DNA from: a virus
Lineage: Duplodnaviria; Caudoviricetes
Strand: one strand, 5' to 3'
DNA: 36,346 nt
IMG/VR virus record: IMGVR_UViG_3300032295_001243
Span: 1 to 36,346 of that record
Below are positions 18,962-35,717 of this stretch, piece after piece; positions within the stretch are counted from its first letter, which is position 1, and every line of letters starts with the position of its first letter. The position numbers and the translations under genes were made by a program. Under the pieces are notes generated by a model. It saw only the letters and a list, made by a program, of their open reading frames with translations, did no database searches and was not told where the DNA came from.

Positions 18962-19302
18962 GCTCGTGTGACTGTTCCCGTTACGGTGACATTGCCTTCC
19001 ATCCAGCGTTCCACTTGTCCATCGCCATCGGTGACGCGCAAGTCCCAAACGTAGCTGCCTGCGGTGAGCGCCAGTGTATCAGCGGCGGAAATAGAAACGA
19101 CGATTTGCCCTGATGCGGCATTCGTGGTGGAAATGTCAAATTCAAAGATGACGGCAGTTGTAAAAGATGTTCGCACCTGCGCCCTGAAAGCGTAGCCAGA
19201 TACGTTAAGCGTTTGCGTTCGCTGGCAATCGCTGTAAAACGTCACCGCCTGAGAAAAATCGGTGTCAATTAAGACGGTCAAGTTATAGACGGCGGGTGTC
19301 AT
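18958..19302 (-). CDS. Small beta-sandwich fibre adaptor (BppU N-domain-like)
   Basis: 'GYAFRAQVR...GQIVVSISAADT..L..GSYVWDL...EGNVTV'. Confidence 0.7.
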   Translation of the reverse strand: MTPAVYNLTVLIDTDFSQAVTFYSDCQRTQTLNVSGYAFRAQVRTSFTTAVIFEFDISTTNAASGQIVVSISAADTLALTAGSYVWDLRVTDGDGQVERWMEGNVTVTGTVTRA

Positions 19303-19305
19303 TTC

Positions 19306-19917
19306 TTATGGTGCGGTGTCAAATAGCTTTAATCCTTCAGTAACCCTATCGTGCCGCAAGTTGATTGGCAGCGTGGCGCAATATCCGCGCTCATCGCCAT
19401 CTTGCCATTGTGTAACGTGATACGCTTTGACTTTGATTGAAGGCGGCACAAGGTAAAGCGCCCTCATGTTTAGCCATGATTCTGCGCAGTTGCATCGGTC
19501 GATTGTATCGGCGGCGATGCGTGCCGCCTCTACGTGTTCGCGTGTTGCGCTCCAGATGCCGCCCCACGCCTGCGTTTTGCCGTTATACATGATGCGCATG
19601 GATTTTGCCTGCCCTGCCTCTGCTAGCCAGTCTGCGCATTCTTGCGATAGCCAAATGTCGCAATCCATTTTCATCAGCACCTCCCCTGCTTGTGAGTTCG
19701 CCAGCATTCCATCCATGATCGCCTTCGCGCAAGAATTGCCATACATGCCGCGACCGTGCGTGCTGTAATAGCCGTAAACAACGTCATCAGGCGGCGTTGT
19801 CCATTCCGTAGGGTCAATCATTATGTCAGCTTGCCAGCCTAGTGACCGCATCCGTGCTTGGCACGCACGCGCAACGGGCATGTCTGATTCTCTGGCTAGT
19901 ATAAACGCTCTGGTCAT
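19306..19917 (-). CDS. Possible GT-A glycosyltransferase-like protein
   Basis: 'VLMKMDCDIW' DxD after a hydrophobic strand; downstream 'WGGIW' and acidic 'AES'. Confidence 0.45.
   Translation of the reverse strand: MTRAFILARESDMPVARACQARMRSLGWQADIMIDPTEWTTPPDDVVYGYYSTHGRGMYGNSCAKAIMDGMLANSQAGEVLMKMDCDIWLSQECADWLAEAGQAKSMRIMYNGKTQAWGGIWSATREHVEAARIAADTIDRCNCAESWLNMRALYLVPPSIKVKAYHVTQWQDGDERGYCATLPINLRHDRVTEGLKLFDTAP
19315..19322 (-). promoter_or_regulatory. TTGACACC late motif, 12 nt before ATG 19302
   Basis: Exact octamer recurring before structural genes. Confidence 0.7.
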
Positions 19918-20663
19918 GTGCATACGCTGTCGATTCCGATTTCCTCTAGGTTGTCAGATAGCGGTCTTGTAGCTACTGGCTGGCCGATTCCGTGAAGATA
20001 ACCGCTGATAAATGACAACCGCGCAAGCTGTGTCGGCGTTGTCTCTGGCTCTGTCGGGCAGTCGATAATCCGAAAATCCGCCGTCAAGCCAGTGGTGTGG
20101 AAGATGTGTGAGCCAGTTAGAAATGGCACTAGCTTCACACCGCTTCCGTTGGTCTGCAACTCTGCGAGCTTGTAGTTGTATACGCCATCAACCGTATCTG
20201 GGATGTAGTTGCGCGACTCGGCGGCGGTTGACCCTGCATTGATTACTACTAAAGTCAAATCTTCGCCGCCTTTGACCCTTCCAGATTCATCCTCTTTGAC
20301 TTGCACGAAAATCCCGTCGCCAACGGCCATGGAGAACTTTGTAGGATCGTCATTTACATCCAGCCGATTGTCGCATTCATGCAAAATCAATGCGTTTTCG
20401 CCGTCTAAGGCTGAAATCGCACGCTCGGCAACGTAGCCTTGCGCCACGGTGACGTAGTAAGCATCTGAAACAGGATCGCGCCCAAGCGTTAGCTGAAAAG
20501 GATTTTGCTCTACGTATTGGCGCGTGCTTGTTCCGACTGGCGTTCGGTCACGCAATCGCTGCAATGACGAGCGAATGCCGTTTGCCCATTTTGCCGTGAT
20601 CGGGTCACCTGATCGGATAAGATCAGGCAACTGAATCGGCGCTTCTCCGTTTCTTATTTTCAT
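19914..20663 (-). CDS. Putative tail tip/baseplate protein
   Basis: Position; 'GDPITAKWANGI' resembles tail-fibre anchor motifs. Confidence 0.6.
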   Translation of the reverse strand: MKIRNGEAPIQLPDLIRSGDPITAKWANGIRSSLQRLRDRTPVGTSTRQYVEQNPFQLTLGRDPVSDAYYVTVAQGYVAERAISALDGENALILHECDNRLDVNDDPTKFSMAVGDGIFVQVKEDESGRVKGGEDLTLVVINAGSTAAESRNYIPDTVDGVYNYKLAELQTNGSGVKLVPFLTGSHIFHTTGLTADFRIIDCPTEPETTPTQLARLSFISGYLHGIGQPVATRPLSDNLEEIGIDSVCT

Positions 20664-21472: not shown

Positions 21473-21473
21473 A

Positions 21474-22736
21474 TTAGTTTGAGAATCTTGCGCTTGTTGC
21501 GCTTGGTTGTTTTGCCCATGCCTCCAAAATGCCAGCTTTTACCGCATCGCTCATTTCTGCCGTGATGCCAGTTTTAATGCCTTTTTCCACTTGCGATTCA
21601 ATGTTGACTTTTTCAAGTGCTGCGTTTGCGCCAGTGGTTTCCATCGCTCCCGTGAATTGCTCGCGGAAGTTCGTTCCGCCTCGCGTAAATTCTCGGATGC
21701 CCTCGCCAATGCGTTTTGCTCTGTCAGGGTCAAGCATGGAAACTCCGCTTAGATTTTCCGCGCCGTATGCTAGTCCTTTTCCTAGTAATTCTCCTAAGTT
21801 GTCCAATCCTGCAATCAGACTTGCTTGTAATCCTGCCAGAAATACGGTTCCGACTGTTTCGCCAATCATGGCAAACTTGTCAGTGTTTCCCTGTAGTGAT
21901 TCAGTGATTGCCGCGCCAAGAAACTCGCCAGTTGCAGCGAATTTGCCCTCCAATTGCGGCAGGAAATTATTGCTTGCGTCCAGCGCGTCTTTCAGCCCCT
22001 CATTGAATCCCGTGCCAAATGCGACTTGTAGTTGAGTTACAGCCGCTTTTGTCTGATTGATTTTCGCGTTGGTGGTGGTGCTTCCTTTTTCAATCGCTTT
22101 ATAGAATCTCCCGCCTTCGCTGGTTGCAACTTTCAATGCTTGCGCGACAACACCAATGGTTATCTTGCCAGCTTCCATGTCCTTGAACAAATCAGAGTAT
22201 GACCTGCCCGTTTTTTCTGCAATAATTTGCAGCGGGTTAAATCCACTTTCGGCAAGCTGGTTTAATTCTTGCCCCATTAGCTTTCCTTTCGCCGCAATTT
22301 GAGCAAACGCCACTGACAACCTCCCGAATCTCTCGCTGTTTCCAAGGGAAATATCGCCAATCATTTGCAGCAATGGCGTAACATCTTTAATTGCAACGCC
22401 GAATCCAAGCATGAGCTTTGCGCCCTCTGCGTAGTCTTGCAAATTCAGCGGCGATTTCTTTTCTTCCTCCCTGAATGTTTTGATAAGGTCTTTAGCGATT
22501 TTTACGCTTCCAGTCAAAACCTCAAATTGCAATGTCAAATCCTCTACGGACGCGGCAGCGTTTGAACTAGATACGACAAGCGCACCAAGTCCAGCAGCAC
22601 CAGCAGCGCCCATTGCGGTCAATCCAGCAACTCCAGTTGCCGTTGCGCTACCGATGTTCGCAATCGAGCCTTTAACGCTGCGCAGCGTCTTCTCTAGATG
22701 CGTTGCGTTGCCGCGAATATCTACGGTAAATGCCAT
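21474..22736 (-). CDS. Tape measure protein (short, 420 aa)
   Basis: 'IGDIS.GNSERFGRLSVAFAQIAAKGKLMGQELNQLAE.G' tape-measure domain; follows the chaperones. Confidence 0.9.
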   Translation of the reverse strand: MAFTVDIRGNATHLEKTLRSVKGSIANIGSATATGVAGLTAMGAAGAAGLGALVVSSSNAAASVEDLTLQFEVLTGSVKIAKDLIKTFREEEKKSPLNLQDYAEGAKLMLGFGVAIKDVTPLLQMIGDISLGNSERFGRLSVAFAQIAAKGKLMGQELNQLAESGFNPLQIIAEKTGRSYSDLFKDMEAGKITIGVVAQALKVATSEGGRFYKAIEKGSTTTNAKINQTKAAVTQLQVAFGTGFNEGLKDALDASNNFLPQLEGKFAATGEFLGAAITESLQGNTDKFAMIGETVGTVFLAGLQASLIAGLDNLGELLGKGLAYGAENLSGVSMLDPDRAKRIGEGIREFTRGGTNFREQFTGAMETTGANAALEKVNIESQVEKGIKTGITAEMSDAVKAGILEAWAKQPSATSARFSN

Positions 22737-22981
22737 ACTTCTTCTAATTCGCTGGTGTCAATTTCATGCGCTGCAAATGCAATTGGTTCATGCTGTTCCG
22801 TTTGTATCTCTCGGCGGTAAGTCTTAGCGCCTTTGCGGTATAAGATCGCGTGAAACAATTCCGCCTCTTCGTCGATTGGTAGCTCATCTATCTGCTTTCG
22901 TGTCCATCCGTATTCTGATGCCAGCAAGTCAACTATAAAGGCGCGGTCACTTGGCGGGTCACCTCGGTCTGTGGCTTTCCC
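22721..22981 (-). CDS. Tail assembly chaperone frameshift extension (gpT-like)
   Basis: -1 frame opens at GGGAAAG; 'DLLASEYGWT..QIDELP'. Confidence 0.8.
   Translation of the reverse strand, partial: GKATDRGDPPSDRAFIVDLLASEYGWTRKQIDELPIDEEAELFHAILYRKGAKTYRREIQTEQHEPIAFAAHEIDTSELEEVWHLP
22754..22761 (-). promoter_or_regulatory. TTGACACC late motif, 17 nt before the tape measure ATG
   Basis: Exact octamer, longer spacing than the others. Confidence 0.5.
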
Positions 22982-23298
22982 TCGTCGGCAGTAACGACTT
23001 GAGCCGCCTCCCATCGGTTGATTACGCCTTGCACGTATGCGCCAATCTCGTTCTCGTCGTCTTCGCTAAGGTCGAGCGCAACGGCGGTCATCGCGTCGAA
23101 AAACTCATCGTCGGAACGCATCGCCTTTCGCACTTCCTGATCATCAGTCATTGCTAGTGCCGCATAGCCATAAATCAGCACCGTGCTATGACTTTTCCCG
23201 CGCCGTTTCTCGTCGGGGAGAAATTCGCATAACCGCGCCCAGATGAAGTGATTCAGTGGTCGCAATTCTTTTCCTTGTATTGTTGGTGGTGTGTTCAT
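22933..23298 (-). CDS. Tail assembly chaperone (gpG-like)
   Basis: Position and slippery site near the 3' end. Confidence 0.78.
   Translation of the reverse strand: MNTPPTIQGKELRPLNHFIWARLCEFLPDEKRRGKSHSTVLIYGYAALAMTDDQEVRKAMRSDDEFFDAMTAVALDLSEDDENEIGAYVQGVINRWEAAQVVTADEGKPQTEVTRQVTAPL
22975..22981 (-). other. -1 programmed frameshift heptamer G GGA AAG
   Basis: Same heptamer and phase as lambda G/GT. Confidence 0.85.
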
Positions 23299-23996: not shown

Positions 23997-24010
23997 ATTA
24001 GATTGTGACG

Positions 24011-24385
24011 TTACGATGCGATGGTCGGAACGTAGGTTGCGCTCAGTGAAATGGAGCGGTAATCATCGGCAGCTTGCGTCACTTCGATGGTGTCGATGAT
24101 GGTCAGTCCGCCAGTCATCGCGGCGATAAGGTGATCGGTCGGAACGGTTGCAAGTGTGATTCCCGATGAAATCGTGCCGCTGAATGCGCTGGTCGCTGGA
24201 ATCTTAGCATTGAGCGCGATGGTGCAATCTTCGTCAAAGTCGCTGCGCCCTGTGCGGTCGCCCGTGATATTCATGACGTTCTTGGTTTGGCACTTGTAAC
24301 TCCATGTTACGCCCTCCAATAAAAAGCCAGTTTGCTGCGCAGGAATGCCCCACACTCCGTTCACAGATCCAAGTAAAGTTGCCAT
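24011..24385 (-). CDS. Putative tail tube protein (124 aa)
   Basis: Position after the terminator gene; beta-rich; has its own TTGACACC motif. Confidence 0.6.
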   Translation of the reverse strand: MATLLGSVNGVWGIPAQQTGFLLEGVTWSYKCQTKNVMNITGDRTGRSDFDEDCTIALNAKIPATSAFSGTISSGITLATVPTDHLIAAMTGGLTIIDTIEVTQAADDYRSISLSATYVPTIAS

Positions 24386-24396
24386 GCCTTTTGCAT

Positions 24397-24404
24397 GGTG
24401 TCAA
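24397..24404 (-). promoter_or_regulatory. TTGACACC late motif, 11 nt before ATG 24385
   Basis: Intergenic exact octamer. Confidence 0.75.
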
Positions 24405-24407
24405 AAT

Positions 24408-24809
24408 TTACGTTGTCTGAAATACAATGTCGCAGTCAAACGCGCATTCCAAGCTATCAGACTCCCATTGCGGCACGCCTCCGTTCGGCGCGAAGTAGTC
24501 AATGTAAATGCTGCTCAATTCCGCATTGACGAGCGTGGCGAAACTGGATGCAAGCAAGGTTTCCAAATCATTCGTAATGTCATTGATTTGATCGACCGTC
24601 AAAGAATCGCCAGAATGCGCCCTTAGCTTGATTTCCACCGTGCCGCGATATGCTTTCGGCAGCGCGTTTGAAATGCGCTCTGTAGTCATCGTAACGCCAA
24701 TAAAGGGCAATTCCACCTCCGCGAACTGTTCTGCGTCCACGGCGGGAATGTCGGTGATGTTCGCGCCAATGACTGAAACAATGGCGGCTTTGATTTGTTG
24801 TGTTGTCAT
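24408..24809 (-). CDS. Putative tail terminator protein
   Basis: Size, 'LPFIGV' motif, synteny. Confidence 0.6.
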   Translation of the reverse strand: MTTQQIKAAIVSVIGANITDIPAVDAEQFAEVELPFIGVTMTTERISNALPKAYRGTVEIKLRAHSGDSLTVDQINDITNDLETLLASSFATLVNAELSSIYIDYFAPNGGVPQWESDSLECAFDCDIVFQTT

Positions 24810-25510
24810 TTAAGATTTCGGAAAATTCTTTTAGCTGCGGTGATACTGCGTCGATAGCCGTCCGCAATTGCCGATTGCACGTTGCCATGATTTGAGTTGC
24901 GCTTGGCGTAGGCATAGTCAACCTTGTTCGTGAGAAGAACGGAGCTGCTCATAAGTTGCCGCTTGACTAGTTTTGACTCGCCAGCACGCGCATTTACATG
25001 GCGGCGAACCCATCGCGGAACGCCTTTGATTTTGCGGATTTTGCCGCGCACGGTTTTTAGCAATGGCGAATCAATTGTTTCTCCCGCCTGAATCCATCCC
25101 GCTTTTGCCAATCCCGCTTTCGCCATCTGTGAATCGACATATTGCTTTAGCTCGGAGCGGTCAAAGGTCTTGCGCTTTGGCTGAAACTTCGCAGGCGGCC
25201 TAACCAACACTTGAAACTTGGCATTCTGGGAACGAAGCTGCCGATGGATGCTTTTAATGTCACCCTCAAATCCCTTAAACTCGGCATAACGAGCCGCTTT
25301 ATGAACCTGCTTTGCGATGCTGCCCATGTATTCCTGCCCAACGTCATTCGACAATCCGAACGGTTGAACCTTCCGCGCAAGTTCTTTTGCAACGGACGTT
25401 CCAATGATCGCGACAGTTTCAGCAACGCTCACTTGCGCCCTAGCTGCGAACGCTTTCAATTCTGCCTCTAGCTTCGCTGATTGGCGCTTGCTTATTTTTA
25501 CGTCAATCAT
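24806..25510 (-). CDS. Putative tail completion/neck protein
   Basis: Basic; 'AKAGW', 'LTNKVDYA'; synteny. Confidence 0.6.
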   Translation of the reverse strand: MIDVKISKRQSAKLEAELKAFAARAQVSVAETVAIIGTSVAKELARKVQPFGLSNDVGQEYMGSIAKQVHKAARYAEFKGFEGDIKSIHRQLRSQNAKFQVLVRPPAKFQPKRKTFDRSELKQYVDSQMAKAGLAKAGWIQAGETIDSPLLKTVRGKIRKIKGVPRWVRRHVNARAGESKLVKRQLMSSSVLLTNKVDYAYAKRNSNHGNVQSAIADGYRRSITAAKRIFRNLK

Positions 25511-25821
25511 TTCTCGTTAGGGTCTGCTAGGGTGAAATGAATGCCAATCGTGCCAACGTCCACTTGTGAGACACGATAAGCCGCGCCGTTGATTGTGCAT
25601 CGTTTGTTGAGTAGCGTTAGCGGCGAAGTTACGTCCGCAGGTTGCGCCGTGACAACTCCGCGCACTTGCGGTTCTAAGCCGCCAAACTCGCCATCCACTG
25701 ACTTGCTGGTGAGATTGTCCACAACGGAAAATGTCTGCCCTGCGCAGATCATTGTCGCAATACCCATTGTTGTGTCGCATTGGTCGTTATGCGACAGCAT
25801 GAAATCATCCACCAAGCTCAT
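25507..25821 (-). CDS. Putative head closure protein (gpFII-like)
   Basis: 104-aa beta-rich; 'TINGAAYRVSQV'. Confidence 0.6.
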   Translation of the reverse strand: MSLVDDFMLSHNDQCDTTMGIATMICAGQTFSVVDNLTSKSVDGEFGGLEPQVRGVVTAQPADVTSPLTLLNKRCTINGAAYRVSQVDVGTIGIHFTLADPNEK

Positions 25822-25832
25822 GCTTTACGCAT

Positions 25833-25840
25833 GGTGTCAA
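25833..25840 (-). promoter_or_regulatory. TTGACACC late motif, 11 nt before ATG 25821
   Basis: Intergenic exact octamer. Confidence 0.75.
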
Positions 25841-25842
25841 CT

Positions 25843-26574
25843 TCACTCGTAATCACGCACGGCGAGGAACGTAGGGAAACGAGGCTTGCCGCTGTCGGTC
25901 GTGCCGCAAAATGCAAACGATACTTGCGCCCCGATTGCGGGAAGCGATGCGCGAACGGCGTTAGTGAATCCCGCGCCAAGGTCAAAAATCATGCCCATCC
26001 AATCGACTGTAACGGCGTTTGTCTTGTGAGCAATCACGGTCGCCTCGTCGCTGTCCACCCATTTGATTTTCAGTAAGTTGTTTGTGCGTTTTTGCTCGTA
26101 TGCCATAACTGGATTACGGAGCATAACGCCTTCCGCACCCACTGCTCGCAATGCGTCAAAATAGCCGTCTAAATGCGCCTCAGACTGGCAAACGATATGC
26201 TCCACCACTTGCGCCACAGAAACGCCCTGCAAGGCATCCTGCGCGTATTGCAAGCGTGCCGTGAAATCGCCTTGTGCCTCTGGTGCGTCGAAAACGTGAA
26301 ACTTGATTTGCGACCAGTCGCCTGCTTTGCTGCGCACGATTCCGACCGCTTGCTGAAACATGCCGCGCCCCATGAACAACTCGCCATCGAGAGCCGCGCT
26401 TGGTAGTTGAGCCGTGAACCATGCAGGTGCGTGAAACGCATTGCCGTTGCGGGAAATGAACTGCTTTCCATCCCACAATGCACGCACTCCATCGAGCTTT
26501 TCAGACATGAGCCATCCTGTCGGGTCTTGCCCTTCGTAGGTGTTGGCTAGTGTCGGTTTCGTGGTCACGCGCAA
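25843..26574 (-). CDS. Minimal ATP-dependent DNA ligase
   Basis: Motif I SEKLDGVR, III LDGELF, IIIa FHVFD, IV EGVML, V LLKIK, VI PRFP. Confidence 0.93.
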   Translation of the reverse strand: MRVTTKPTLANTYEGQDPTGWLMSEKLDGVRALWDGKQFISRNGNAFHAPAWFTAQLPSAALDGELFMGRGMFQQAVGIVRSKAGDWSQIKFHVFDAPEAQGDFTARLQYAQDALQGVSVAQVVEHIVCQSEAHLDGYFDALRAVGAEGVMLRNPVMAYEQKRTNNLLKIKWVDSDEATVIAHKTNAVTVDWMGMIFDLGAGFTNAVRASLPAIGAQVSFAFCGTTDSGKPRFPTFLAVRDYE

Positions 26575-26603
26575 GATTTAGCGAAAACCATTTCGCTCGT
26601 CAA
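26575..26603 (-). promoter_or_regulatory. Promoter TTGACG-N17-TAAATC containing inverted repeat AGCGAAA-N4-TTTCGCT
   Basis: Between a terminator and the ligase start; operator matches the early promoters. Confidence 0.6.
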
Positions 26604-26616
26604 TCTTTTTTTACAG

Positions 26617-26648
26617 AAAAAAGCCTCGCACCGTTTCCGATGCGAGGC
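26617..26648 (-). terminator. Intrinsic terminator after the glycosyltransferase cassette
   Basis: GCCTCGCATCG-GAAA-CGGTGCGAGGC-TTTTTT. Confidence 0.88.
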
Positions 26649-26681
26649 AGACGCAATACACACATCGACCAGACAAAAAAT

Positions 26682-27321: not shown

Positions 27322-29534
27322 TCGTTTTCTTGTTTTGGTTTTTTGATCCAGCATCGACCAACTGTCAGATAATCCACGCCAGATGTTTTCAATGCCTCTT
27401 TCACGCTGTCAACGTCAATGTCGTGACCAGCGAAAAAGCCCCCTTGTTTTACCTTTGGCGACCATGCCGCGATGTCCGCTTTCACAGAATCGAAGTCATG
27501 CGCCCCGTCAATAAAGATGCCATCAATCTCGCCGTCAAGGAATTGTTCTGCCGCTTGCACGCTTTCCATTTCCACAATCTGAATCATATCCGCAACGCCT
27601 GCGCGTTCGATGTTATCCTTGAATTGCGCAAGGATGCTGCCGCCGCAATGCTCAACGTATTGCTGCTGGTCTGCTTTGTCTTGCTCGCCTTTCCATGTGT
27701 CAACGCAGTAGAGCGTGACGTTCTTGCCCATGCTCTGCAATTCCTGAGCAAGCGCAATGATGCTTTGCCCTAGCCATGCGCCGACTTCCACGAACTTTCC
27801 GCCCTCTGGCAACGCCTCGGCAAGCGCAAAGTAAAGGTTCTGAAAGTCGCACCATCCGTGAACTTGCGAGGGCGTTAGTTTGTCAGCCATAAGCAAATCG
27901 AATGTCTTCTTCCCGCGCCGATAGTTTGTATCGCTGTTGCTGCGCTTGTAAGTTTCGTCCCACTCGCCTTTTCCGAACAATGGGTGGTAATGATTGAAAA
28001 CCAGTCTGTCGCGTGCGTCGATGACCACGCCATCCATGAACGCTTTGTGTGAAAACCACGTATCAGAATACATCGAGAAGAACTCAGGGTGATAGAGATA
28101 GCCTTGTTCTTTGTAGCGTTTGCGAGTCAGAATCGACATACAAAGCAAATCGTCTTTGCGGTTGCCGTCGCTGACTGCCAGCACCTTTGATTCGCTCAAA
28201 TCGCCAAGCTCGGCAAGGATAAGTTCATCCCATCCCATCGGCGGTTCAAAGTCATCCGATACTTGCACCAGCACATCGCCGCGGCTTTTCTTTGCCGCTG
28301 CGTTCCATGCGCCTACGCATCCGCCAGACAGGACGATTGTGTGATTCGCCAGGCACAGCGGCAGGCTCGCTTCGTCGTCGTGGTCGATAGCAAAAATATG
28401 CTCAATAGCATCTGGATTCTTGGCGCGGCGCAACCATTCCTTGCGGCACATCCATGCCTTTTGCGGTCTGCCTCGCGTGGCGTGAAGCAGGCTGATTTTT
28501 TTACCGTTCTTGATGAAGTGATTTGTTTCCAGAACATCGGCTTGCGCGATAGCATTGTTTGCGCGTAAAGCCATGCCACGGAGCGAGACGCCTAAAGAAC
28601 CGTAATACGGGCGGCGCAAGTTCCATGGTGGATTCTGCGGTATGTCTAGCGCAAGCATTGCCTTGGTTAGCCCTAGCGCCTTTTCTGGCTCCACGGTCAG
28701 CAATGCAAGCGCAAGCTCGCCGTATGCCTCGCGCCGATTCGGGTCGGTCATGAGCGCCTGCCCCAGCATCGTGATTCTTGTTTGCAGGTCATCCGACAAC
28801 TGCGCCAATTGGAAAAACGCTTCGTATTTCTCATTCGTTCCCGCTTCATCATCACGCACAAAGTCAATCGCCGCCATGGTCGCATCATCGCGGCGGTCGA
28901 GCGCAATCAGCGATTGCATACGATGAAACTTCTGCGAAATGCTGCGCTCGTCTTCTGGAACGCTTTCGATGATTCGCAAGTTGCGCTCATCGCGCGAACT
29001 ATGGCGCGGCTCGCTTGCGTGGACAATTTGCGCATGTTCCAGAACTACCGCTTTGTGGTCTTCTTTCAGCTTGAAGCACTCGTGAATCGGATTTACCCAC
29101 CGCCCCGCGCCTTTGCGCCAGATGCGTTCGCGAATGTTGATAACGCCGTCTTCTGGCACTACGTAAGGCATCAGCACGCAATCGACTTCCTTGTCTCGAA
29201 TGTCTTTCAGCAACAACTTGATTTGCTCGATAGATTCGGCGCTGATTATGTCATCCGTATCAGCCCACATAACCCATTCATTTTTCGCCATGTCGCAAGC
29301 AAGATTCCTCGCACGTCCGAAGTCGTCACAATGTGGCCAATCGCAATCTGGCTTGTTGAAATACTCAGAAATGCGAACGCCGCGCTTCTCACAGATTTTA
29401 AGCGTTCTATCCGCTTTTTGGTTGCCAATCGCACGAACCGCGATTATCTCGTCAGCTAGTGGTTGGAAGTGATCTAGGAAGCGACCAATGATGGATTCAA
29501 CATTGCCAACGATAATACATAGACTGATTTTCAT
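27318..29534 (-). CDS. Multidomain GT2 - TPR - GT-A - SAM-dependent O-methyltransferase (start re-called at MKISLC, 738 aa)
   Basis: 'WADTDD'; TPR-like helices 'DPNRREAYGELA'; 'SLLHATRGRP..QVSDD'; 'VEVGAWLGQS..VDTW..FIDGAH..GHD'. Confidence 0.88.
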   Translation of the reverse strand: MKISLCIIVGNVESIIGRFLDHFQPLADEIIAVRAIGNQKADRTLKICEKRGVRISEYFNKPDCDWPHCDDFGRARNLACDMAKNEWVMWADTDDIISAESIEQIKLLLKDIRDKEVDCVLMPYVVPEDGVINIRERIWRKGAGRWVNPIHECFKLKEDHKAVVLEHAQIVHASEPRHSSRDERNLRIIESVPEDERSISQKFHRMQSLIALDRRDDATMAAIDFVRDDEAGTNEKYEAFFQLAQLSDDLQTRITMLGQALMTDPNRREAYGELALALLTVEPEKALGLTKAMLALDIPQNPPWNLRRPYYGSLGVSLRGMALRANNAIAQADVLETNHFIKNGKKISLLHATRGRPQKAWMCRKEWLRRAKNPDAIEHIFAIDHDDEASLPLCLANHTIVLSGGCVGAWNAAAKKSRGDVLVQVSDDFEPPMGWDELILAELGDLSESKVLAVSDGNRKDDLLCMSILTRKRYKEQGYLYHPEFFSMYSDTWFSHKAFMDGVVIDARDRLVFNHYHPLFGKGEWDETYKRSNSDTNYRRGKKTFDLLMADKLTPSQVHGWCDFQNLYFALAEALPEGGKFVEVGAWLGQSIIALAQELQSMGKNVTLYCVDTWKGEQDKADQQQYVEHCGGSILAQFKDNIERAGVADMIQIVEMESVQAAEQFLDGEIDGIFIDGAHDFDSVKADIAAWSPKVKQGGFFAGHDIDVDSVKEALKTSGVDYLTVGRCWIKKPKQENE

Positions 29535-29540
29535 AATAAG

Positions 29541-29574
29541 AAAAAGCGCACCGTGCAAACACACGATGCGCTTT
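29541..29574 (-). terminator. Intrinsic terminator after the major capsid gene
   Basis: GCGCATCGTG-TGTTTG-CACGGTGCGC-TTTTT. Confidence 0.85.
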
Positions 29575-29599
29575 AGTCATGCAATTGTCAACCAGAAAA

Positions 29600-30490
29600 T
29601 TATGGTTTCGTCGCAAGCGCCAAGCCAAGGGTCAGGCCAGTCGCCATACCGTAAAGGCACTCAAGAGCGATGTAGTGAACGCCAGCGGCTTCGTTATAGC
29701 TGCGGCGAAGACCCATCACGATGCCCGAAGGATCAGCAACGCGTTCCACGGCCAGGTAAGCCTCGGGAGCTTGCGGGGCGAGATAGCGCATCGCAACACT
29801 AATGGCGTCAGGGTGAGCGGCGAAGGCAACTAGCGAAGTGGAGGAAGTCGGCAGCAGGTTGGTTTCGTAAGGAGTAAAGCCGACCAACTTGCGACCAAGC
29901 GAACCATCGCGAGCGGCGAGATTGTCGCCCATGGCGTAGGCTTGCAGCACGTTGGAAGAACCAAGCAGGGCAGCGCCGACGATGGGATTGAAAAGCACGG
30001 AGCAATCGTCGATGTTGACGTTGTTCTGAGCCAGCTTGGAACGCAGGGCGATGATTTGCGCCAGCGTGTAGTTAGCCTCGGCGGTGGTAACGGTAGCGGC
30101 ACCAAAGTTAGCAGTCGTTACCAGCTTGAAGATGTTTTCCAAAACTTTAGCACCAAGAGCGCGACCAGCTTGTGCGGCCATCGCGTCAATACGAGCGGCC
30201 GAGCTGTTGGCGAACTGCAAATCGGTAACATCAACCGAAATCACGTTGTGTTGGTTAAGATTGACCGTGTTGTGAGTCACAGCGCCGCCAGCAGTCTGAT
30301 AGTTGGCAGTCGTGGCGTTGAAGGTGGTTGCAGTCAATGCGCTGATTTGAGGCACAAGGATTGCGTCACCTTTGCCGCGAGCATCGGAACTAAAGTCACG
30401 GGAAAATGCGTTGATTGGTGCAAGAACGGCAGTAAATGCCCGAAGTGCTTCTTGCGCGAAAATGGTGTCGTTAAACGATAGTGTGGACAT
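29600..30490 (-). CDS. Major capsid protein
   Basis: 296 aa after protease/scaffold, followed by a terminator; 'KGDAILVP', 'HPDAISVAMR', 'LYG'. Confidence 0.85.
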   Translation of the reverse strand: MSTLSFNDTIFAQEALRAFTAVLAPINAFSRDFSSDARGKGDAILVPQISALTATTFNATTANYQTAGGAVTHNTVNLNQHNVISVDVTDLQFANSSAARIDAMAAQAGRALGAKVLENIFKLVTTANFGAATVTTAEANYTLAQIIALRSKLAQNNVNIDDCSVLFNPIVGAALLGSSNVLQAYAMGDNLAARDGSLGRKLVGFTPYETNLLPTSSTSLVAFAAHPDAISVAMRYLAPQAPEAYLAVERVADPSGIVMGLRRSYNEAAGVHYIALECLYGMATGLTLGLALATKP

Positions 30491-30492
30491 AA

Positions 30493-30948
30493 TTATTTGA
30501 TAAGTTGAGCTTTAATTTCTTTTTGGTTTTGATTGTAATACTTGGTTTTTTCTTCAGGCGAGAGAGTCGCCATGATTGAAATATGGTCGGTTGGCGCTGC
30601 TTCGTCGGCGCTTGCGTCAACAGGCGCGATGCCTGCTTGTGCTACGATTTCAGCGGCGCGAGCTTCGGCGGAAGTGCTGGCTTCGATAACGCTTGCTTCC
30701 AGTTCCGCGACTTTGCTTTGAGCTTCGGCAAGCGATGCCGTGAGCGTGTCGCGTTCTGCGGTGATGCTGTCGAGTTGCGCCTTTACGCTAGCAAGCTCGC
30801 CAATCGCGTTCTCAAGGTCTGCCGTGCGCTCGGTGAGTGCTGCGGTCATGTCGCTGATTTCCGTTTGCGCGGATTCCAGACTAGCTTCCAGCCCTTGCAC
30901 TTTTTCAGTGAGAGCTGCATCAGGGCGGAATTTGTCGAGGATGCTCAT
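30493..30948 (-). CDS. Nested in-frame scaffolding protein (MSILDKF..., 151 aa; lambda Nu3-like arrangement)
   Basis: Coiled-coil C-terminus of the protease ORF; in-frame ATG preceded by TTGACACC at 12 nt. Confidence 0.7.
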   Translation of the reverse strand: MSILDKFRPDAALTEKVQGLEASLESAQTEISDMTAALTERTADLENAIGELASVKAQLDSITAERDTLTASLAEAQSKVAELEASVIEASTSAEARAAEIVAQAGIAPVDASADEAAPTDHISIMATLSPEEKTKYYNQNQKEIKAQLIK

Positions 30949-31854
30949 TGCATTTATTTTGGTGTCAAAAATTTCGTCGGCAAATCCCATCTCAATTGCC
31001 TGCTTTGCGGTCATCCATGTTTCTTTTTTCATGAGAGCGCGAATGTCGTCTTTGTCGCGTTTTGTCTTCTCGGCGTAGATGCCCGCGATTTCGTCGCTGA
31101 TGTTTTCGAGCAATTCCGCATACCGTAGCAAGGTTTCACTGTCGCCTTGTGCGCCGCCTGATGCCTCATGAATCATGATTTTCCCGTTGCTGGCAATCTC
31201 CACTTTGTCAGCCGCCATCGCAATTACGCTGCCCATGGATGCTGCCAGGGTATTGATTCGCGCCGTGACGTAAACGCCGCGCTCGCGTAGCTTTTTCATT
31301 TCGTTGAAAATGCGATAGCCCTCGAAAACGCTGCCACCGCCTGAATGGATTTCAACGTCGAGCGTATCAATGGCGTTATCTGCGCAGGCTATGATTTCAC
31401 CGAATGCGTAGTGATTCTCCACGGCTTTCATTCCGTAAACCTTGGCAATGTCGTCGATGAGTTTGTCCACGCTGATCTTGTCCACGTGGTCATTCAATTT
31501 CACCTTTGCCGCTTTGTTATCAATCGTAATCATAAAATTATCTGCGTTTAGTTGTTTGTTTTTTTGATTTGCCCATGACTTGCCAGCATCGCCGCCCCAT
31601 AGCGCCCATGCGATGCGCCCCGCTGACGGGTAACCCTCCTCGCCTTGCCGGAATCCTTGCGCCTCCTTGTCAACTTCGTGCCGTGCAAAATAGCTAACCA
31701 TGCGCCGAACTGTCTCAGGCGATAGATTAGCGCGATTGCTAATGTCTCGCGCACGCGCAACGCCGATTGCCGTCCCTCCACGGTTGAACTCGGCACGCCA
31801 CGCAAGTCCGCGCCGCGCCTCGTCTGCCATTTCGGTTGTCGGCTTTAGGGTCAT
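30493..31854 (-). CDS. Prohead maturation protease (ClpP-like) with extra N-terminal domain and C-terminal scaffold
   Basis: 'IHSGGGSV', 'LAASMGSVI', 'IMIHE', 'ETWMTAKQAIEMGFAD'. Confidence 0.9.
   Translation of the reverse strand: MTLKPTTEMADEARRGLAWRAEFNRGGTAIGVARARDISNRANLSPETVRRMVSYFARHEVDKEAQGFRQGEEGYPSAGRIAWALWGGDAGKSWANQKNKQLNADNFMITIDNKAAKVKLNDHVDKISVDKLIDDIAKVYGMKAVENHYAFGEIIACADNAIDTLDVEIHSGGGSVFEGYRIFNEMKKLRERGVYVTARINTLAASMGSVIAMAADKVEIASNGKIMIHEASGGAQGDSETLLRYAELLENISDEIAGIYAEKTKRDKDDIRALMKKETWMTAKQAIEMGFADEIFDTKINAMSILDKFRPDAALTEKVQGLEASLESAQTEISDMTAALTERTADLENAIGELASVKAQLDSITAERDTLTASLAEAQSKVAELEASVIEASTSAEARAAEIVAQAGIAPVDASADEAAPTDHISIMATLSPEEKTKYYNQNQKEIKAQLIK
30961..30968 (-). 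promoter_or_regulatory. TTGACACC late motif, 12 nt before internal ATG 30948
   Basis: Exact octamer at the protease/scaffold boundary. Confidence 0.7.
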
Positions 31855-32213
31855 GCTTCCACTGCTACAATAAGAATGTTCGCCGCCGATGTGTTGGCTT
31901 TAGCGTAAAGCGTTGCACTGCTCGGCGTGAACAGGCACGCACCGCCTGCCGCAATCTTCGTTTTGAATACGGTCAAGCCAGAATCGCCGCCAAGCTCAAC
32001 AAATCGCGTGGTGCTGAGGTTGCGAATCATGACTAGCTGCGGAGCGCCAGTAATGTCGCCAAAATCCACAAGCTCGGCAGTCGTGCCGATGTTCTGCGTA
32101 ACCTGCGTCATTTGTGCGCCCGCCATGTCCGCAAACAGGTTAGCGGTTTGATTTACTGTCGCGTTGTCTTTGCTCGCCTTAAGCGATACGGAAAATGTTA
32201 CTTCGTTAGCCAT
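31851..32213 (-). CDS. Small beta-rich head-associated protein
   Basis: Between portal and protease; beta-strand composition. Confidence 0.6.
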   Translation of the reverse strand: MANEVTFSVSLKASKDNATVNQTANLFADMAGAQMTQVTQNIGTTAELVDFGDITGAPQLVMIRNLSTTRFVELGGDSGLTVFKTKIAAGGACLFTPSSATLYAKANTSAANILIVAVEA

Positions 32214-33663
32214 TTGCTTGTGGTGTTTGTGTTGGTGTTTCGTTCGGTGTCAGCATCGCCATTTCTCGGTCTTCGATTGTGATGCCTAGCCCTGATTCGT
32301 TGACTGCTTTTTGCTTGAGCTTCTGCATCGTGAGATAGGCGAGGCGTTCGTCGAGACTTTCCTCGGCGGATTTGCCAAGATAGCCCAAAATGTCTTGCGG
32401 ATTCAAGAATCCCGCTTTCCACATCTCGATCAGTTCTTTTGATACGCGCCCATCGTCGATGGTGAGTTTTTTAGGATAGGTAAACTTCCACTTCCACCAA
32501 TCGTTCGCGGCTTGCAGTCTGCCAAGTTTGATGAACTTCGCGGTGACGTAGTTGACGATGCGTGCCGCTGCATACTCCAGCAGGTCTTGACGGTCTTCTA
32601 CGGCTCGCTGTGCGCGTCCAAGGTCGGCGCGTTCTGCTGTGCCTTGTCCCGTTGCGTGCCATACCATCGAATACGGCCAGTTAATGCCGGCAAGCGCCTT
32701 GCGGATGATGCGATTTTGGAAACTCTCCCACATGTCGCCTGGGCGGTCGTTTTTTACGACTTCTAGCTTGCCGCCGCTCTTGGCTGCAAAATAACGCACA
32801 GTGCCGCCTTGATAGTTCTCGGAGATGATTCCTTGCTCATTGGTGCAACTTGTGCCGCCGATGACATTCGCGTTGTCGTCAATGTCGGGCAGTCCAGTTT
32901 CGTTGTGTTCCGTCATGACAATGGACGAAAGCATCAACTGCGCGTATCGCTCCCATTCGTGAGATTGCAGAGCATCGCGCAGGTCATTGATCGCGTGAGT
33001 GAATGCTGGCAATCCGCGCCCTTGTTCCTGCCATGACGGGTCAAAGATATGCACCATGTCGGCGGCGGCGATGTATTGGATAAGCTCGCCGTATTCGTCG
33101 TTGAAGCAATACGCCAATGGCGCACCGTTGCTATAAATGATGCCATCGGTTAGCGTCTTGCCGCGATACTGCCCCGTGGTCAACTTCCCGTCTTCCATTC
33201 CAACGGGCGTTGCAATCCGATGCGCGGGGATTTGCTGGATTCGCGGGTAGTCGTTTTCCGTTTTTGTCAGCAAGATAAACGCCTCGCCATCGCGGTCAAT
33301 GGCGCACGACATGCTGTAAAGGTTCGTCTGAAAAGTATTCTGACCGCCGCGAACGTCGCAGATTTTATACCATTCGTCATTCAGCAAATCCTCGGCTGAT
33401 TGCGCGAACTCTCGATCTTTCGACTTGCTTTGCGCCTGCCATGAGCGACCTACGGAATACATCGCCTTTTGCTGAATTGCTCCAAGCAAAATGCCGTCGT
33501 TAAGATACAGGCGGCGGGAAAACGAAACAAGCGCCTTGCGGTCATACGCTGGCACAAGCTCGCCAATGTCCTTCATTTGCACGGGCTGAAACGGTCTCGC
33601 TGCTGAGTAGCGAACCGCCCCTTGTGCTGCCTTCCATGGCTGTCCGTATTGGTCAACTATCAT
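32206..33663 (-). CDS. Portal protein (lambda family)
   Basis: 485 aa; 'DRDGEAFI', 'IQQIPAHRI', 'MVHIFDP..EQGRGLP'. Confidence 0.88.
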   Translation of the reverse strand: MIVDQYGQPWKAAQGAVRYSAARPFQPVQMKDIGELVPAYDRKALVSFSRRLYLNDGILLGAIQQKAMYSVGRSWQAQSKSKDREFAQSAEDLLNDEWYKICDVRGGQNTFQTNLYSMSCAIDRDGEAFILLTKTENDYPRIQQIPAHRIATPVGMEDGKLTTGQYRGKTLTDGIIYSNGAPLAYCFNDEYGELIQYIAAADMVHIFDPSWQEQGRGLPAFTHAINDLRDALQSHEWERYAQLMLSSIVMTEHNETGLPDIDDNANVIGGTSCTNEQGIISENYQGGTVRYFAAKSGGKLEVVKNDRPGDMWESFQNRIIRKALAGINWPYSMVWHATGQGTAERADLGRAQRAVEDRQDLLEYAAARIVNYVTAKFIKLGRLQAANDWWKWKFTYPKKLTIDDGRVSKELIEMWKAGFLNPQDILGYLGKSAEESLDERLAYLTMQKLKQKAVNESGLGITIEDREMAMLTPNETPTQTPQANG

Positions 33664-33955
33664 AAACGGTTCTGTTAAGCAAATCTCCCACCGTGCGCGA
33701 TTGCGGACGGATTCCGCGCTTAATCCACGCGATTGCTTGGTTCAAAACGACAAGCCGCGTGGTTTCTGGTAAAGATACGAGAACGGTGTAGCTGATGCCG
33801 TTCTTTTGCGAGTTAGTCAGGGTGTTGCCGCCACCTTTGGAAAGCATACCCGTAAGCGCCGCCGTGCGTGCGTTGATGAGTGAACGCAAAATTGATGGGT
33901 CGTCCTGCGCTGCGTCATAATACGCCTGAATCAGTTGTTTTGCCGATACGTCCAC
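33653..33955 (-). CDS. Head completion/adaptor protein (gpW position)
   Basis: Between terL and portal; GTG start supported by TTGACACC at 11 nt. Confidence 0.6.
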   Translation of the reverse strand: MDVSAKQLIQAYYDAAQDDPSILRSLINARTAALTGMLSKGGGNTLTNSQKNGISYTVLVSLPETTRLVVLNQAIAWIKRGIRPQSRTVGDLLNRTVYDS

Positions 33956-33966
33956 GCATGATGCGC

Positions 33967-33974
33967 GGTGTCAA
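33967..33974 (-). promoter_or_regulatory. TTGACACC late motif, 11 nt before GTG 33955
   Basis: Intergenic exact octamer. Confidence 0.75.
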
Positions 33975-33977
33975 AAC

Positions 33978-35696
33978 TTACTCCGCTTCTTCCTCATCTT
34001 GGCGCGTTCCGATTAGTCCAAACATGGAAGCAAGAACAACTTGCATGGCTTCGCAGTCAACGGCATGGTTATCATTGTGCCGCTTTTTCCAGACGGCGGT
34101 TTTCCCTTCGCCGCGCCTAGCTTCTGCGTCAATTTGCCGTAAGTATTCGCGCCCAACGTCATCGGGAATCTCCCATGCAACGCCTTTTTGGTTGCGTAGC
34201 TGATGCAAAATGTCCTTGTGCCGCAAGTTCGACCAGTAGCAAGCCATCGTTTTTTTGCCATTCGCGCTTGTGACGTTTTGATACCGCGAAAACGCTTTGT
34301 AAATCGGTTTCCCTGTCTTGCTCGGATGCGGGTAGCTATCGCGCCCATCGCCGCGCAATGCAAGCCAGCCATATTGATTGCATCGGCTGTAAACTTCGCT
34401 TGTCTGATAGCCGCAGTCGATTTGCGTCTTGCGGTTTTCGACTTTGTAAGTCTCTTGGATGACTTTGCAGCGTTCCCATGTGTCCACTTTGCCAAACCAT
34501 AGCAAGCGGGAGCTGCCATCGTGCCGCCATGCGCGAATCACGCACCAAAAATGGTCTGCTTGCCTATCAAGGGTCATAAACCGATGCGCTTCGTCGTCGA
34601 TCAATTCGCCCTTGTCATACTCGGAAATCAAATACCCGAAGTCCGACAGCGTAACGCGGTTGTCTTCTTGCTCGTCTGACCAGAAATCAGCGAGTCGTTT
34701 CTGAATAAACTGCCGCAGCAAATCCAGATTGCCGCGGCTGACTTCATCCATGGCTTCGCATCGTTCTATGACTAGCCGCCAGAGTGGAAGGCGCCAGTTT
34801 GCCAGCGCGGAATAATGGTAGCCTTTTGAGTCTGGCATTCCTTCCGTCTGCTGTATGTATTTGCCGGCGGTAGCAATCTCGCGGCGGATCTGCGGCTTGT
34901 CTTCGATGTGGTAATCGCAATCAGCATTCGCACACTTGATTCTCGCCGTTTGCGCCATCGTAACGCGGTCCGTGATGGTTTCGTCATAAACTACGTTTTC
35001 CCACCGCCAGCCCTGCCAAGTGCCGCATGACGGGCAACAATACGAAAACTCATATTGCGAAGTTGCCGCCCATTTCTTGTGCCAGTCATCGCCAACATAG
35101 CCGCCTTGACTGAGGAGGTAAAATTGCCGATTCCATCGGTCATGCAATCGCCCCTGAGCCTCGCGGATCATGCCCTTGTCCCATGTCCAAACCTCGTCGC
35201 AGAGAACGCGGCGCATGGATTTTGCTTGCAAGCCTGAGATGTTTGCCCCTGTCAGGAACATGCTCATGTGCGGGAAAATGATTGCATCCTTGCGCAGCTT
35301 GTGACGGTGCTTGCCAGTCGGAAGCAGGCTCGCCGTTTCTCGCGTGTTGCGCAACGTATGTTGCATCCGCGTTTCTGCCCAGTCCTTAATGTCGGCATCG
35401 GTCTGCCCTACGATCATCGTGCCGCCTGGATCTTCACTGATGACAAACGCCAATGCCGCCTCGATCATCGTGGTTTTTCCAGTGCCGACCGGAGCGAGTA
35501 AGCAAACTTCCTTTGCGTCAATGTCAGCGAATGCGTCCAGCGGTTCTCGGAGCCATGGCGCTGAGTCTGCCTGGTAGGTTGGCGAAAGTCCCTCGTAGAG
35601 CGCCACTCTGCCAGTTGCCCATTCACTCGGATGCATCTTTACCGGTGGACGGCACGCGGATCGGAAGGCGGAGAAAAGGATCTCTGTTTTATTCAT
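33978..35696 (-). CDS. terL: Terminase large subunit (lambda GpA family)
   Basis: 'PSEWA', 'PWLREPL', Walker A PVGTGKT, Walker B LCDE, CPSC, 'IDCGY', 'NHAVDC'. Confidence 0.92.
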   Translation of the reverse strand: MNKTEILFSAFRSACRPPVKMHPSEWATGRVALYEGLSPTYQADSAPWLREPLDAFADIDAKEVCLLAPVGTGKTTMIEAALAFVISEDPGGTMIVGQTDADIKDWAETRMQHTLRNTRETASLLPTGKHRHKLRKDAIIFPHMSMFLTGANISGLQAKSMRRVLCDEVWTWDKGMIREAQGRLHDRWNRQFYLLSQGGYVGDDWHKKWAATSQYEFSYCCPSCGTWQGWRWENVVYDETITDRVTMAQTARIKCANADCDYHIEDKPQIRREIATAGKYIQQTEGMPDSKGYHYSALANWRLPLWRLVIERCEAMDEVSRGNLDLLRQFIQKRLADFWSDEQEDNRVTLSDFGYLISEYDKGELIDDEAHRFMTLDRQADHFWCVIRAWRHDGSSRLLWFGKVDTWERCKVIQETYKVENRKTQIDCGYQTSEVYSRCNQYGWLALRGDGRDSYPHPSKTGKPIYKAFSRYQNVTSANGKKTMACYWSNLRHKDILHQLRNQKGVAWEIPDDVGREYLRQIDAEARRGEGKTAVWKKRHNDNHAVDCEAMQVVLASMFGLIGTRQDEEEAE

Positions 35697-35709
35697 CTAC
35701 CGCAGGCGC

Positions 35710-35717
35710 GGTGTCAA
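35710..35717 (-). promoter_or_regulatory. TTGACACC late motif, 13 nt before the terL ATG
   Basis: Exact octamer overlapping the terS stop. Confidence 0.7.

What the first reader, a model, noticed from the sequence alone, without database searches (positions are those of the whole stretch)
19300..35717. TTGACACC octamer 11-17 nt before seven late-gene starts: an unexplained late-expression signal
Seen: on the minus strand TTGACACC occurs at 35710, 33967, 30961, 25833, 24397, 22754 and 19315. It is followed by a start codon after 13, 11, 12, 11, 11, 17 and 12 nt (terL, gpW-like, nested scaffold, head closure, tail tube, tape measure, fibre adaptor). I found one more copy not at a start (19261) and none in the early half; about 0.55 copies are expected per strand by chance. 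Known: TTGACA is the sigma70 -35 box, but a -35 needs roughly 30 nt to the transcription start, so here the -10 would fall inside the gene, and no TANNNT is conserved there. There is no Shine-Dalgarno either. Inference: a compact late promoter giving leaderless mRNAs (read by a phage factor such as the sigma-4-like HTH at 690-1040), or a non-SD translation-initiation element. It marks most late genes that are not translationally coupled, including the restart after the ligase insert.
Basis: partly seen in the sequence, partly recalled or inferred. Interest (0 to 1): 0.85.

Follow-up and report, generated by a model that had tools for sequence, protein, structure and literature searches.

The report
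Compact TTGAC late promoter, Verrucomicrobia phages
This phage and many relatives in Verrucomicrobia-type bacteria put the word TTGAC 19-22 bases before the start codons of their separately started virion genes, with no second promoter box; it likely marks an undescribed compact late promoter that would start messages at or just before the start codon, probably switched on by a small phage DNA-binding protein, though no RNA data test this.

Summary
In detail: there are 8 TTGACACC copies, all on the minus strand (shuffles give 0.66), and seven precede starts at the stated spacings. The eighth is a coding coincidence. The window is a complete 36-kb lambda-like phage, probably of Verrucomicrobiota. 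The conserved core is TTGAC, not the octamer. In distant prophages, 125 of 623 TTGAC lie 19-22 nt before an ATG, with a sharp lower edge at 19; host DNA and loci around other terminases show no peak. A pyrimidine-purine step sits at +18/19 or +19/20 even when the ATG lies further away, as a fixed transcription start would. The spacer is GC-rich, there is no -10 or SD, and the motif often runs out of the capsid terminator. Best reading: a compact, factor-dependent late promoter giving leaderless or short-leader mRNA. The 104-aa sigma4-like HTH (690-1004) is a core gene of these phages and the best candidate switch; binding is untested. Cultured phage P8625 lacks it and has TTGACA at the canonical 36 nt. 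No RNA run was listed. This scan reported the same element three times on other DNA.

The parts
35710..35717 (-). TTGAC(ACC) box before terL; predicted start site 35698 (T|A step), 2 nt before the ATG at 35696; the TGA in the box is the terS stop
   Evidence: present in 9 of 14 close terL relatives listed
33967..33974 (-). Box before the gpW-like head gene; predicted start at the G of GTG, 33955 (C|G step)
   Evidence: 23 of 23 distinct relatives
30961..30968 (-). Box inside the protease gene (codons F-D-T) before the nested scaffold start at 30948; predicted start 30949; would drive scaffold plus major capsid
   Evidence: 17 of 17 relatives; TTT GAC kept in 14 of 14 distinct F-D-T sequences
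25833..25840 (-). Box before the head-closure gene; predicted start at the ATG, 25821
   Evidence: 13 of 13 relatives; in 9 of 11 loci folded it starts in the U-tract of a -23.6 to -32.8 kcal/mol hairpin
24397..24404 (-). Box before the probable tail tube gene; predicted start at the ATG, 24385
   Evidence: 11 of 11 relatives
22754..22761 (-). Box before the tape measure gene (ATG 22736); predicted start 22742, 6-nt leader; no pyrimidine at -1 in this copy
   Evidence: 10 of 10 relatives; PHROG tape-measure hit
19315..19322 (-). Box before the fibre adaptor gene (ATG 19302); predicted start 19303; no YR step in any of 5 distinct close copies
19261..19268 (-). Eighth copy, inside adaptor codons; chance copy
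   Evidence: lost in 4 of 7 relatives
690..1004 (-). 104-aa sigma4-like helix-turn-helix protein (ATG at 1004), candidate late switch; last-but-one early gene before terS on the circular map
1069..1098 (-). Canonical sigma70-type promoter (TTGACA-18-TAAAAT) of the HTH gene; same geometry (TTGACG-18-TAAAAT) in L013 and L022
193..693 (-). 166-aa gene coupled to the HTH gene; distant relative of LmbU-like proteins that follow the HTH gene in many prophages; possible co-factor
   Evidence: phmmer E 2.5e-4 to L128; relatives hit NF038070 below its cut-off, the window protein itself does not hit it
29543..29574 (-). Terminator-like hairpin after the major capsid gene
26566..26648 (-). Terminator-like hairpin (26648-26623), then TTGACG at 26603, 35 nt before the ligase GTG at 26568: canonical leaderless geometry with an imperfect -10; internal contrast to the 19-nt boxes

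Best explanation
TTGAC sits 19-22 bases before the uncoupled late start codons of this phage family and is likely the single recognition element of a compact late promoter that would start transcription about 19-20 bases after its first T, giving leaderless or very short-leader mRNAs, probably only once the phage's sigma4-like HTH protein (690-1004) has been made. Shown: the motif, its spacing, its conservation, its restriction to this phage family, the fixed pyrimidine-purine step, the absence of -10 and SD, and the HTH gene as a core gene with its own ordinary promoter. Inferred: (1) transcription starts at +19/20; (2) the HTH is the switch; (3) host sigma-A region 4 reads TTGAC after being moved about 16 bp towards the active centre by the phage factor (about 55:45 against the HTH reading it directly). 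How a GC-rich stretch without a -10 is melted is unexplained. The layout would give separate late messages for terL, gpW-portal-protease, scaffold-capsid, closure, tube, tape measure and fibre.
For: (a) Spacing has a sharp lower edge and a right tail. Among 155 non-redundant sites, 2 lie below 19; then 65, 26, 18, 25, 5 and 3 at 19-24. This fits a start site that the ATG cannot precede. (b) Initiator signature. A pyrimidine precedes the ATG in 63 of 65 sites at d=19, and in 31 of 31 against 181 of 320 other first ATGs (p 8e-8). Where the ATG lies at 21-24, a YR step still falls at position 19 or 20 in 39 of 51 sites, against 25.7 +/- 3.6 in shuffles (0 of 2000 reach 39). In phages with 28% TerL identity, 12 of 14 structural-gene sites have Y|A at 18/19 or 19/20 although the ATG lies at 20-39, and A/C-rich leaders fill the gap. 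YR at -1/+1 and 10% leaderless starts are reported for Akkermansia (PMC4782308, passages). (c) The 13 nt before motif starts are GC-richer and A-poorer than before other starts (66% vs 56% GC, p 2e-5), with SD-like words in 1 of 64 against 37 of 320. (d) The motif starts inside the capsid terminator U-tract in 9 of 11 close loci. The capsid gene itself has none, but the scaffold start just before it does. (e) Phage specificity. Hits at d 19-22: host stretches 7 of 636 and 4 of 492; stretches around other terminases 4 of 639; stretches picked only by a regulator hit 49 of 291 on the sense strand and 1 of 217 antisense. (f) The HTH family is in 54 of 401 genomes and shares 32 of them with the 58 TerL genomes (p 1.6e-17). 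P8625 has no hit and carries TTGACA at the canonical 36 nt before 4 of 52 genes. (g) Host RpoD region 4.2 reads TRERIRQIE in 3 of 3 genomes. TTGAC stays fixed across HTH helices SRATISNA, TRAAVSKR, SSGTISHH and SKQ[AD]FHYH.
Against: No 5'-end, ribosome or binding data. Two of the window's seven sites (tape measure, adaptor) lack the YR step, as do all 5 distinct close adaptor copies. In the YR test other offsets reach up to 34 of 51, so the excess is moderate. The sites are related by descent and not independent. The 14 distant-phage sites come from a few clades, and those at 34-39 could also be read as ordinary -35 boxes with poor -10s. The non-motif control set contains false starts. The fold match to sigma4 is weak (best Z 5.3 and 6.2, tied with LuxR-type domains). 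The G050 prophage has the motif but no significant family member, only a protein aligning at E 0.003, probability 10%. An element in G081 has the HTH but no box before terS or its broken terL. A few boxes precede non-structural genes, including one upstream of the HTH gene in L126/L128. No promoter known to me opens GC-rich DNA from a lone element at -19.
Confidence: 0.6

Rival explanations
1. The same compact promoter, but the HTH is not the switch: it is read by host holoenzyme alone, by the LmbU-like partner, or by another phage or host factor.
For: The core equals the host -35 consensus and does not vary with the HTH helix. The G050 prophage has boxes with no significant family hit. Co-occurrence shows only that the HTH is a core gene.
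Against: Host DNA shows no peak at this spacing, which argues against unaided host enzyme. Loci picked by regulator hits alone carried the motif. P8625 lacks both the factor and the short spacing.
Confidence: 0.13
2. An mRNA element (UUGAC) that recruits ribosomes or a translational activator in a host that hardly uses SD, or that helps re-initiation after the upstream stop.
For: It is tied to start codons, including the nested scaffold start, and marks uncoupled genes only. Its TGA is the nearest upstream ORF stop in 24 of 91 sites. Spacers fold slightly better than shuffles (19 of 91 with z below -2).
Against: The 16S tail is the ordinary CCUCC type in 2 of 2 genomes and has no GUCAA. The spacer is GC-rich. 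A YR step stays at 19/20 while the ATG moves out to 39. The capsid gene has no box. The box starts inside a terminator U-tract.
Confidence: 0.12
3. A processing signal: an endoribonuclease cuts long late transcripts about 14 nt after UUGAC and leaves 5'-AUG leaderless mRNAs.
For: It would also explain the fixed distance, the lower edge and the lack of a -10. Start codons are paired in the predicted fold in 12 of 16 gpW and 7 of 9 tube sites (expected 9.9 and 4.3).
Against: It needs read-through of the capsid terminator. Y|R is a transcription-initiator pattern. The conserved companion gene is a DNA-binding HTH, not a nuclease. Over all sites the start codon is paired in 46 of 91, against 38 expected.
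Confidence: 0.09
4. A Q- or AlpA-like antitermination or pause site: sigma4 grips a -35-like word during elongation while the HTH modifies RNA polymerase.
For: The HTH gene lies at the end of the early region, as Q does. Lambda Q stabilises sigma R4 on a -35-like sequence (PMC6606751, passages). AlpA appears among the fold rows (Z 4.9, rmsd 2.8, 69 aligned).
Against: Q sites occur once per late operon, beside a promoter and a -10-like word (recalled). Here there are 7 to 16 boxes per phage, fixed to start codons, and TANNNT is rare at every spacing.
Confidence: 0.05

Closest known systems
Canonical leaderless sigma70 promoters (ligase gene of this phage; Verrucomicrobia phage P8625; Akkermansia, PMC4782308)
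   Same: Same TTGACA word, YR at the start, message beginning at the start codon.
   Different: There TTGACA lies 35-36 nt before the start with a -10 box; here it lies 19-22 nt before, with no -10.
Thermus phage Lalka27a late promoters (bioRxiv 10.64898/2026.04.20.719267, passages)
   Same: Many late promoters, mostly leaderless transcripts, phage factor proposed.
   Different: They keep a TANNNT-type -10 (TAGGGT) six bases before the start; this element has none.
Lambda Q with the -35-like TTGACT of PR' (PMC6606751, passages; PR' sequence in PMC4604602)
   Same: A phage protein holds host sigma region 4 on a TTGAC word at a non-standard position. Six bases, one base, a six-base -10-like word and six more give 19, the modal distance here (my arithmetic; the +1 to +6 position of the pause word is recalled).
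   Different: Q acts on a paused elongation complex at one site and needs a -10-like word; here there are many sites and no such word.
T4 sigma appropriation (AsiA/MotA), P23-45 gp39 and Xp10 P7 (PMC7403470, passages); T4 gp55/gp33 late promoters (recalled)
   Same: Small phage proteins displace or remodel sigma4 to redirect host polymerase; T4 late promoters use one element.
   Different: Those promoters keep a -10 element. No sequence relation to these proteins was found in the Pfam, PHROG or NCBIfam scans.
Start-associated sequences of cluster K mycobacteriophages (PMC3203893, passages)
   Same: Asymmetric repeat tied to start codons, function untested.
   Different: SAS lie 3-7 bp from starts, contain AGGAG and mark non-structural genes; this box lies 13-16 bases away, has no SD and marks mainly virion genes.

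Membership tests
Canonical sigma70 promoter | -35 hexamer TTGACA | tested here: met
   TTGAC invariant; sixth base A in 106 of 134
Canonical sigma70 promoter | TANNNT 16-18 nt after the -35 | tested here: not met
   6 of 134 sites; it would lie inside the gene
Canonical sigma70 promoter | Start about 35 nt after the first T | not testable with these tools
   needs 5'-end data; the sequence signature points to 19-20
Shine-Dalgarno site | Complement to the 16S 3' tail, 5-10 nt before the start | tested here: not met
   tail is CCUCCUUUCU in 2 of 2 genomes, no GUCAA there; motif ends 13-16 nt before the start
Sigma54 promoter | GG at -24 and GC at -12 (consensus recalled) | tested here: not met
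   position tables show GA rather than GG and no fixed GC twelve bases on
Phage-factor-dependent late promoter | Restricted to the phage and to late units | tested here: met
   no peak in host or other-terminase DNA; mostly late genes, a few exceptions
Phage-factor-dependent late promoter | Transcription starts there and depends on a phage protein | not testable with these tools
   needs an experiment
Sigma70-family sigma factor (for the 690-1004 protein) | Region 4 fold | tested here: inconclusive
   best rows are sigma4 domains at Z 5.3 (rmsd 2.7, 60 aligned) and Z 6.2 (rmsd 2.7, 63 aligned), tied with LuxR types; Foldseek none at E 0.001
Sigma70-family sigma factor (for the 690-1004 protein) | Region 2 domain for core binding and -10 melting | tested here: inconclusive
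   104 aa leaves little room; no Sigma70_r2 hit; a long homologue scores 17 bits on TIGR02937 against a cut-off of 42.9; the N-terminal helices of the long form were barely covered by the fold search
Q/AlpA antiterminator system | One binding site within a late promoter plus a -10-like pause word | tested here: not met
   7-16 boxes per phage; no TANNNT at any fixed spacing
Cluster K SAS | SD-containing 13-mer 3-7 bp from non-structural starts | tested here: not met

The most novel reading that the evidence does not exclude
A family of over a thousand phage sigma4-like proteins reprograms Verrucomicrobiota RNA polymerase so that a -35 consensus word is read at -19 and transcription starts on GC-rich DNA with no -10 element. 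This would be a new mode of bacterial initiation, the initiation counterpart of lambda Q's sigma4 relocation, with one word serving early promoters at 35 nt and late ones at 19 nt.
Probability: 0.45. Interest if true: 0.9.

Novelty: new variant of a known kind. Interest (0 to 1): 0.74.

Why it matters
Every bacterial promoter class I know (recalled) that uses host polymerase relies on an element near -10 or -12 to open the DNA. A promoter made of TTGAC at -19 followed by GC-rich DNA would be a new architecture. It is cheap to test: host region 4.2 has the standard sequence, and the candidate factor is only 104 aa. It would also give a function to a large uncharacterised phage protein family, a start-calling rule for phages of an abundant freshwater and soil phylum, and possibly an orthogonal 20-bp inducible promoter.

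Tried and rejected
No RNA holder was listed for window 24001-33990, so no reads were laid.

Host-wide signal: rejected. The roughly threefold excess of TTGACAC[CG]-N11-13-ATG over its reversed control in the host order did not resolve into gene starts. Most of the ATGs in the 40 loci checked open no ORF of 60 codons or more, and of the rest I recognised none as a true start; the one cluster that did resolve was another prophage.

Obligatory start-hiding hairpin: rejected as the core mechanism. The shift is real but modest (mean z -0.72; start paired 46 of 91 against 38 expected).

Also rejected: sigma54-like and Bacteroidota-like promoter readings (by inspection; consensus recalled) and 16S pairing. 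The first 16S pattern found nothing; a shorter one worked.

No cultured phage encodes the HTH family by tblastn at E 1. A viral-contig scan with the wide HTH alignment could not be run because the alignment has no conserved stretch long enough. Foldseek against PDB gave nothing at E 0.001; in BFVD the hits at E 0.001 or better were all uncharacterised phage proteins.

Literature searches that found no description of this element. The library holds open-access and preprint papers only. PMC1797609 was not held; bioRxiv supplements are closed, so the Lalka27a promoter logos were not seen.
Full report
Observation. The window holds 8 TTGACACC, all on the minus strand, against 0.66 expected. Seven precede start codons at 21, 19, 20, 19, 19, 25 and 20 nt from the first T. 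The eighth lies in codons of the adaptor gene and is lost in 4 of 7 relatives. The window is a circular 36.3-kb phage with a 13-nt end overlap and a lambda-like module: terminase, portal, ClpP-type protease, capsid and tape measure by PHROG hits. The gpW-like, scaffold, closure and tube labels rest on position and size. The host is probably Verrucomicrobiota: a 77%-identical TerL fragment lies in a bin titled Verrucomicrobia bacterium (a 1.1-kb contig, so weak alone), and 58 of 401 genomes of that bin's order carry TerL relatives, many at 33-38% identity.

Conservation. Among close viral contigs the box is kept before gpW (23 of 23 distinct sequences), tube (11 of 11), tape measure (10 of 10), scaffold (17 of 17) and closure (13 of 13). 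It is kept before terL in 9 of 14 and before the adaptor in 6 of 8, and is absent before portal and capsid (part was cut and the affected genes of interest were rerun). It follows the gene when the upstream neighbour changes, and appears before the 120-aa gene in the one contig (L048) where that gene's upstream sequence differs. Inside the protease frame TTT GAC is kept in 14 of 14 distinct F-D-T sequences, although this phage uses TTT in 50 of 96 and GAC in 116 of 176 cases; a fifteenth protease lacks F-D-T. These sequences are related, so the count overstates independence.

Breadth and specificity. In 40 stretches around prophage terminases, 125 of 623 distinct TTGAC lie 19-22 nt before an ATG and only 9 lie at 8-18. 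The reversed and complementary words give 1 of 591 and 9 of 446. Host DNA gives 7 of 636 and 4 of 492. As a forward test I fetched 20 stretches from 12 elements chosen only by a hit to a candidate regulator: 49 of 291 on the sense strand, 1 of 217 antisense. Twenty stretches around Terminase_6N hits gave 4 of 639; not all of these are verified prophages, and each covers at most 20 kb. Among 653 first ATGs, TTGAC occurs 100 times at 19-22 against 1.5 in background windows, and no single-mismatch variant exceeds 9. The element is therefore an exact five-base core; 'ACC' is this clade's version.

DNA start site or RNA signal. Four features favour a start site. First, the spacing has a wall at 19 and a tail to the right. 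Second, a pyrimidine precedes the ATG in 63 of 65 sites at 19, and where the ATG lies at 21-24 a YR step still falls at 19 or 20 in 39 of 51 sites (shuffles 25.7 +/- 3.6; other offsets 12-34). In distant phages with 28% TerL identity, 12 of 14 sites before structural genes have Y|A at 18/19 or 19/20 while the ATG lies anywhere from 20 to 39, and the extra stretch is A/C-rich. YR at -1/+1 and 10% leaderless starts are reported for Akkermansia (PMC4782308, passages). Third, the 13 nt before motif starts are GC-rich and lack SD words, and the 16S tail offers no partner. Fourth, the box begins in the U-tract of the capsid terminator in 9 of 11 close loci, and it precedes scaffold-capsid and tube, the units needed in most copies. 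Against this: two window sites lack YR, only 5 of 91 prophage sites follow a terminator by my filter, the box's TGA is the nearest upstream stop in 24 of 91 sites, and spacers fold a little better than shuffles. No -10 exists at any spacing. The same phage uses ordinary promoters for early genes (1098, 5819 and 14035+) and the canonical 35-nt geometry for the ligase.

Candidate factor. The 104-aa protein at 690-1004 has a canonical promoter, also seen in two relatives, and lies just before terS on the circle. Its family has 1,325 representatives at E 0.001, with a conserved helix (R 81%, A 85%, S 98% of 148) and a PS..M tail. It occurs in 54 of 401 genomes, 32 shared with TerL (p 1.6e-17), with two copies in G211, G086 and G188, which each have two TerL. 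Models (pLDDT 85.7) match sigma region 4 domains best but weakly. The next gene is LmbU-like in many prophages. P8625, a cultured Verrucomicrobia phage with a related module, has no family hit and has TTGACA 36 nt before 4 of 52 starts and at 19-22 before none; this is one outgroup only. Counter-cases: the G050 prophage has 7 boxes but only a doubtful relative of the factor (E 0.003, probability 10%), and the G081 element has the factor but no box before terS or its broken terL.

Which protein reads TTGAC. The core equals the host -35 word, host RpoD region 4.2 is standard in 3 of 3 genomes, and the core does not change across four different HTH recognition helices. I therefore lean, about 55:45, to host sigma4 reading it from a shifted position. 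Lambda Q is the precedent for a phage protein holding sigma R4 on a -35-like word (PMC6606751, passages); in PR' that TTGACT ends one base before +1 (PMC4604602, passage). The intolerance of mismatches and the conserved R and S in most family members favour direct reading by the HTH. How the DNA is melted is unexplained.

Novelty. Dense leaderless late promoters under phage control are known (Lalka27a, passages), as is sigma4 remodelling (PMC7403470, passages), but these keep a -10. Six searches of the held library found no description of this element; subscription papers are mostly missing. PMC7969949 (AlpA) was seen only as a search listing. Earlier agents of this scan reported the same element on three other sequences; those notes are leads, not support. 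The forward test, the YR statistics and the helix comparison were computed here. Verdict: a real and widespread element, most likely a new promoter architecture within the known class of phage late promoters. Confidence is 0.6 for promoter plus this factor and about 0.73 for a promoter of any kind.

Noticed in passing
L212 (P8625) upstream of 5448, 10772 and 15594: Three late promoters with TTGACA at 36 nt share an inverted repeat, GTATC...GATAC (imperfect at the third), over the -10 region; a possible operator for a different late regulator.
   Followed up: no
window 26566-29574: Two glycosyltransferase-type genes (one with a methyltransferase domain) and an ATP-dependent ligase lie between the capsid terminator and the closure gene; most relatives have closure directly after the terminator.
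   Followed up: partly
window 30493-31854: The protease gene has a 110-aa N-terminal domain ahead of the ClpP domain and a nested scaffold start at 30948.
   Followed up: partly
window 22721-23298: Two overlapping ORFs before the tape measure gene, arranged like a tail chaperone frameshift pair; not tested.
   Followed up: no
L114, L119, L123 just upstream of terS: A 74-75 aa XRE-like gene carries its own box at 19 nt in several prophages; boxes also precede methyltransferases, a nuclease, an ATPase (24 nt) and the LmbU-like partner.
   Followed up: no
L027-L039 (distant viral group): These boxes have a second conserved word, GCA at about +12 to +14, followed by an A/T-rich stretch up to the predicted start, unlike the GC-rich spacers of the main group.
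   Followed up: no
G006, several contig ends and internal sites: A repeated word beginning TTGACACCGG(G/T)GGCGGGGTG occurs 8 times, probably an insertion-sequence end, and inflates the pattern count.
   Followed up: no
L187:14706-15455 (G050 prophage): A separate 250-aa family with an SKQ[ND]WQ helix and a KS..AR..Y tail, found in 14 of 401 genomes, sits in prophages that carry the box; possibly a remote branch of the factor.
   Followed up: partly
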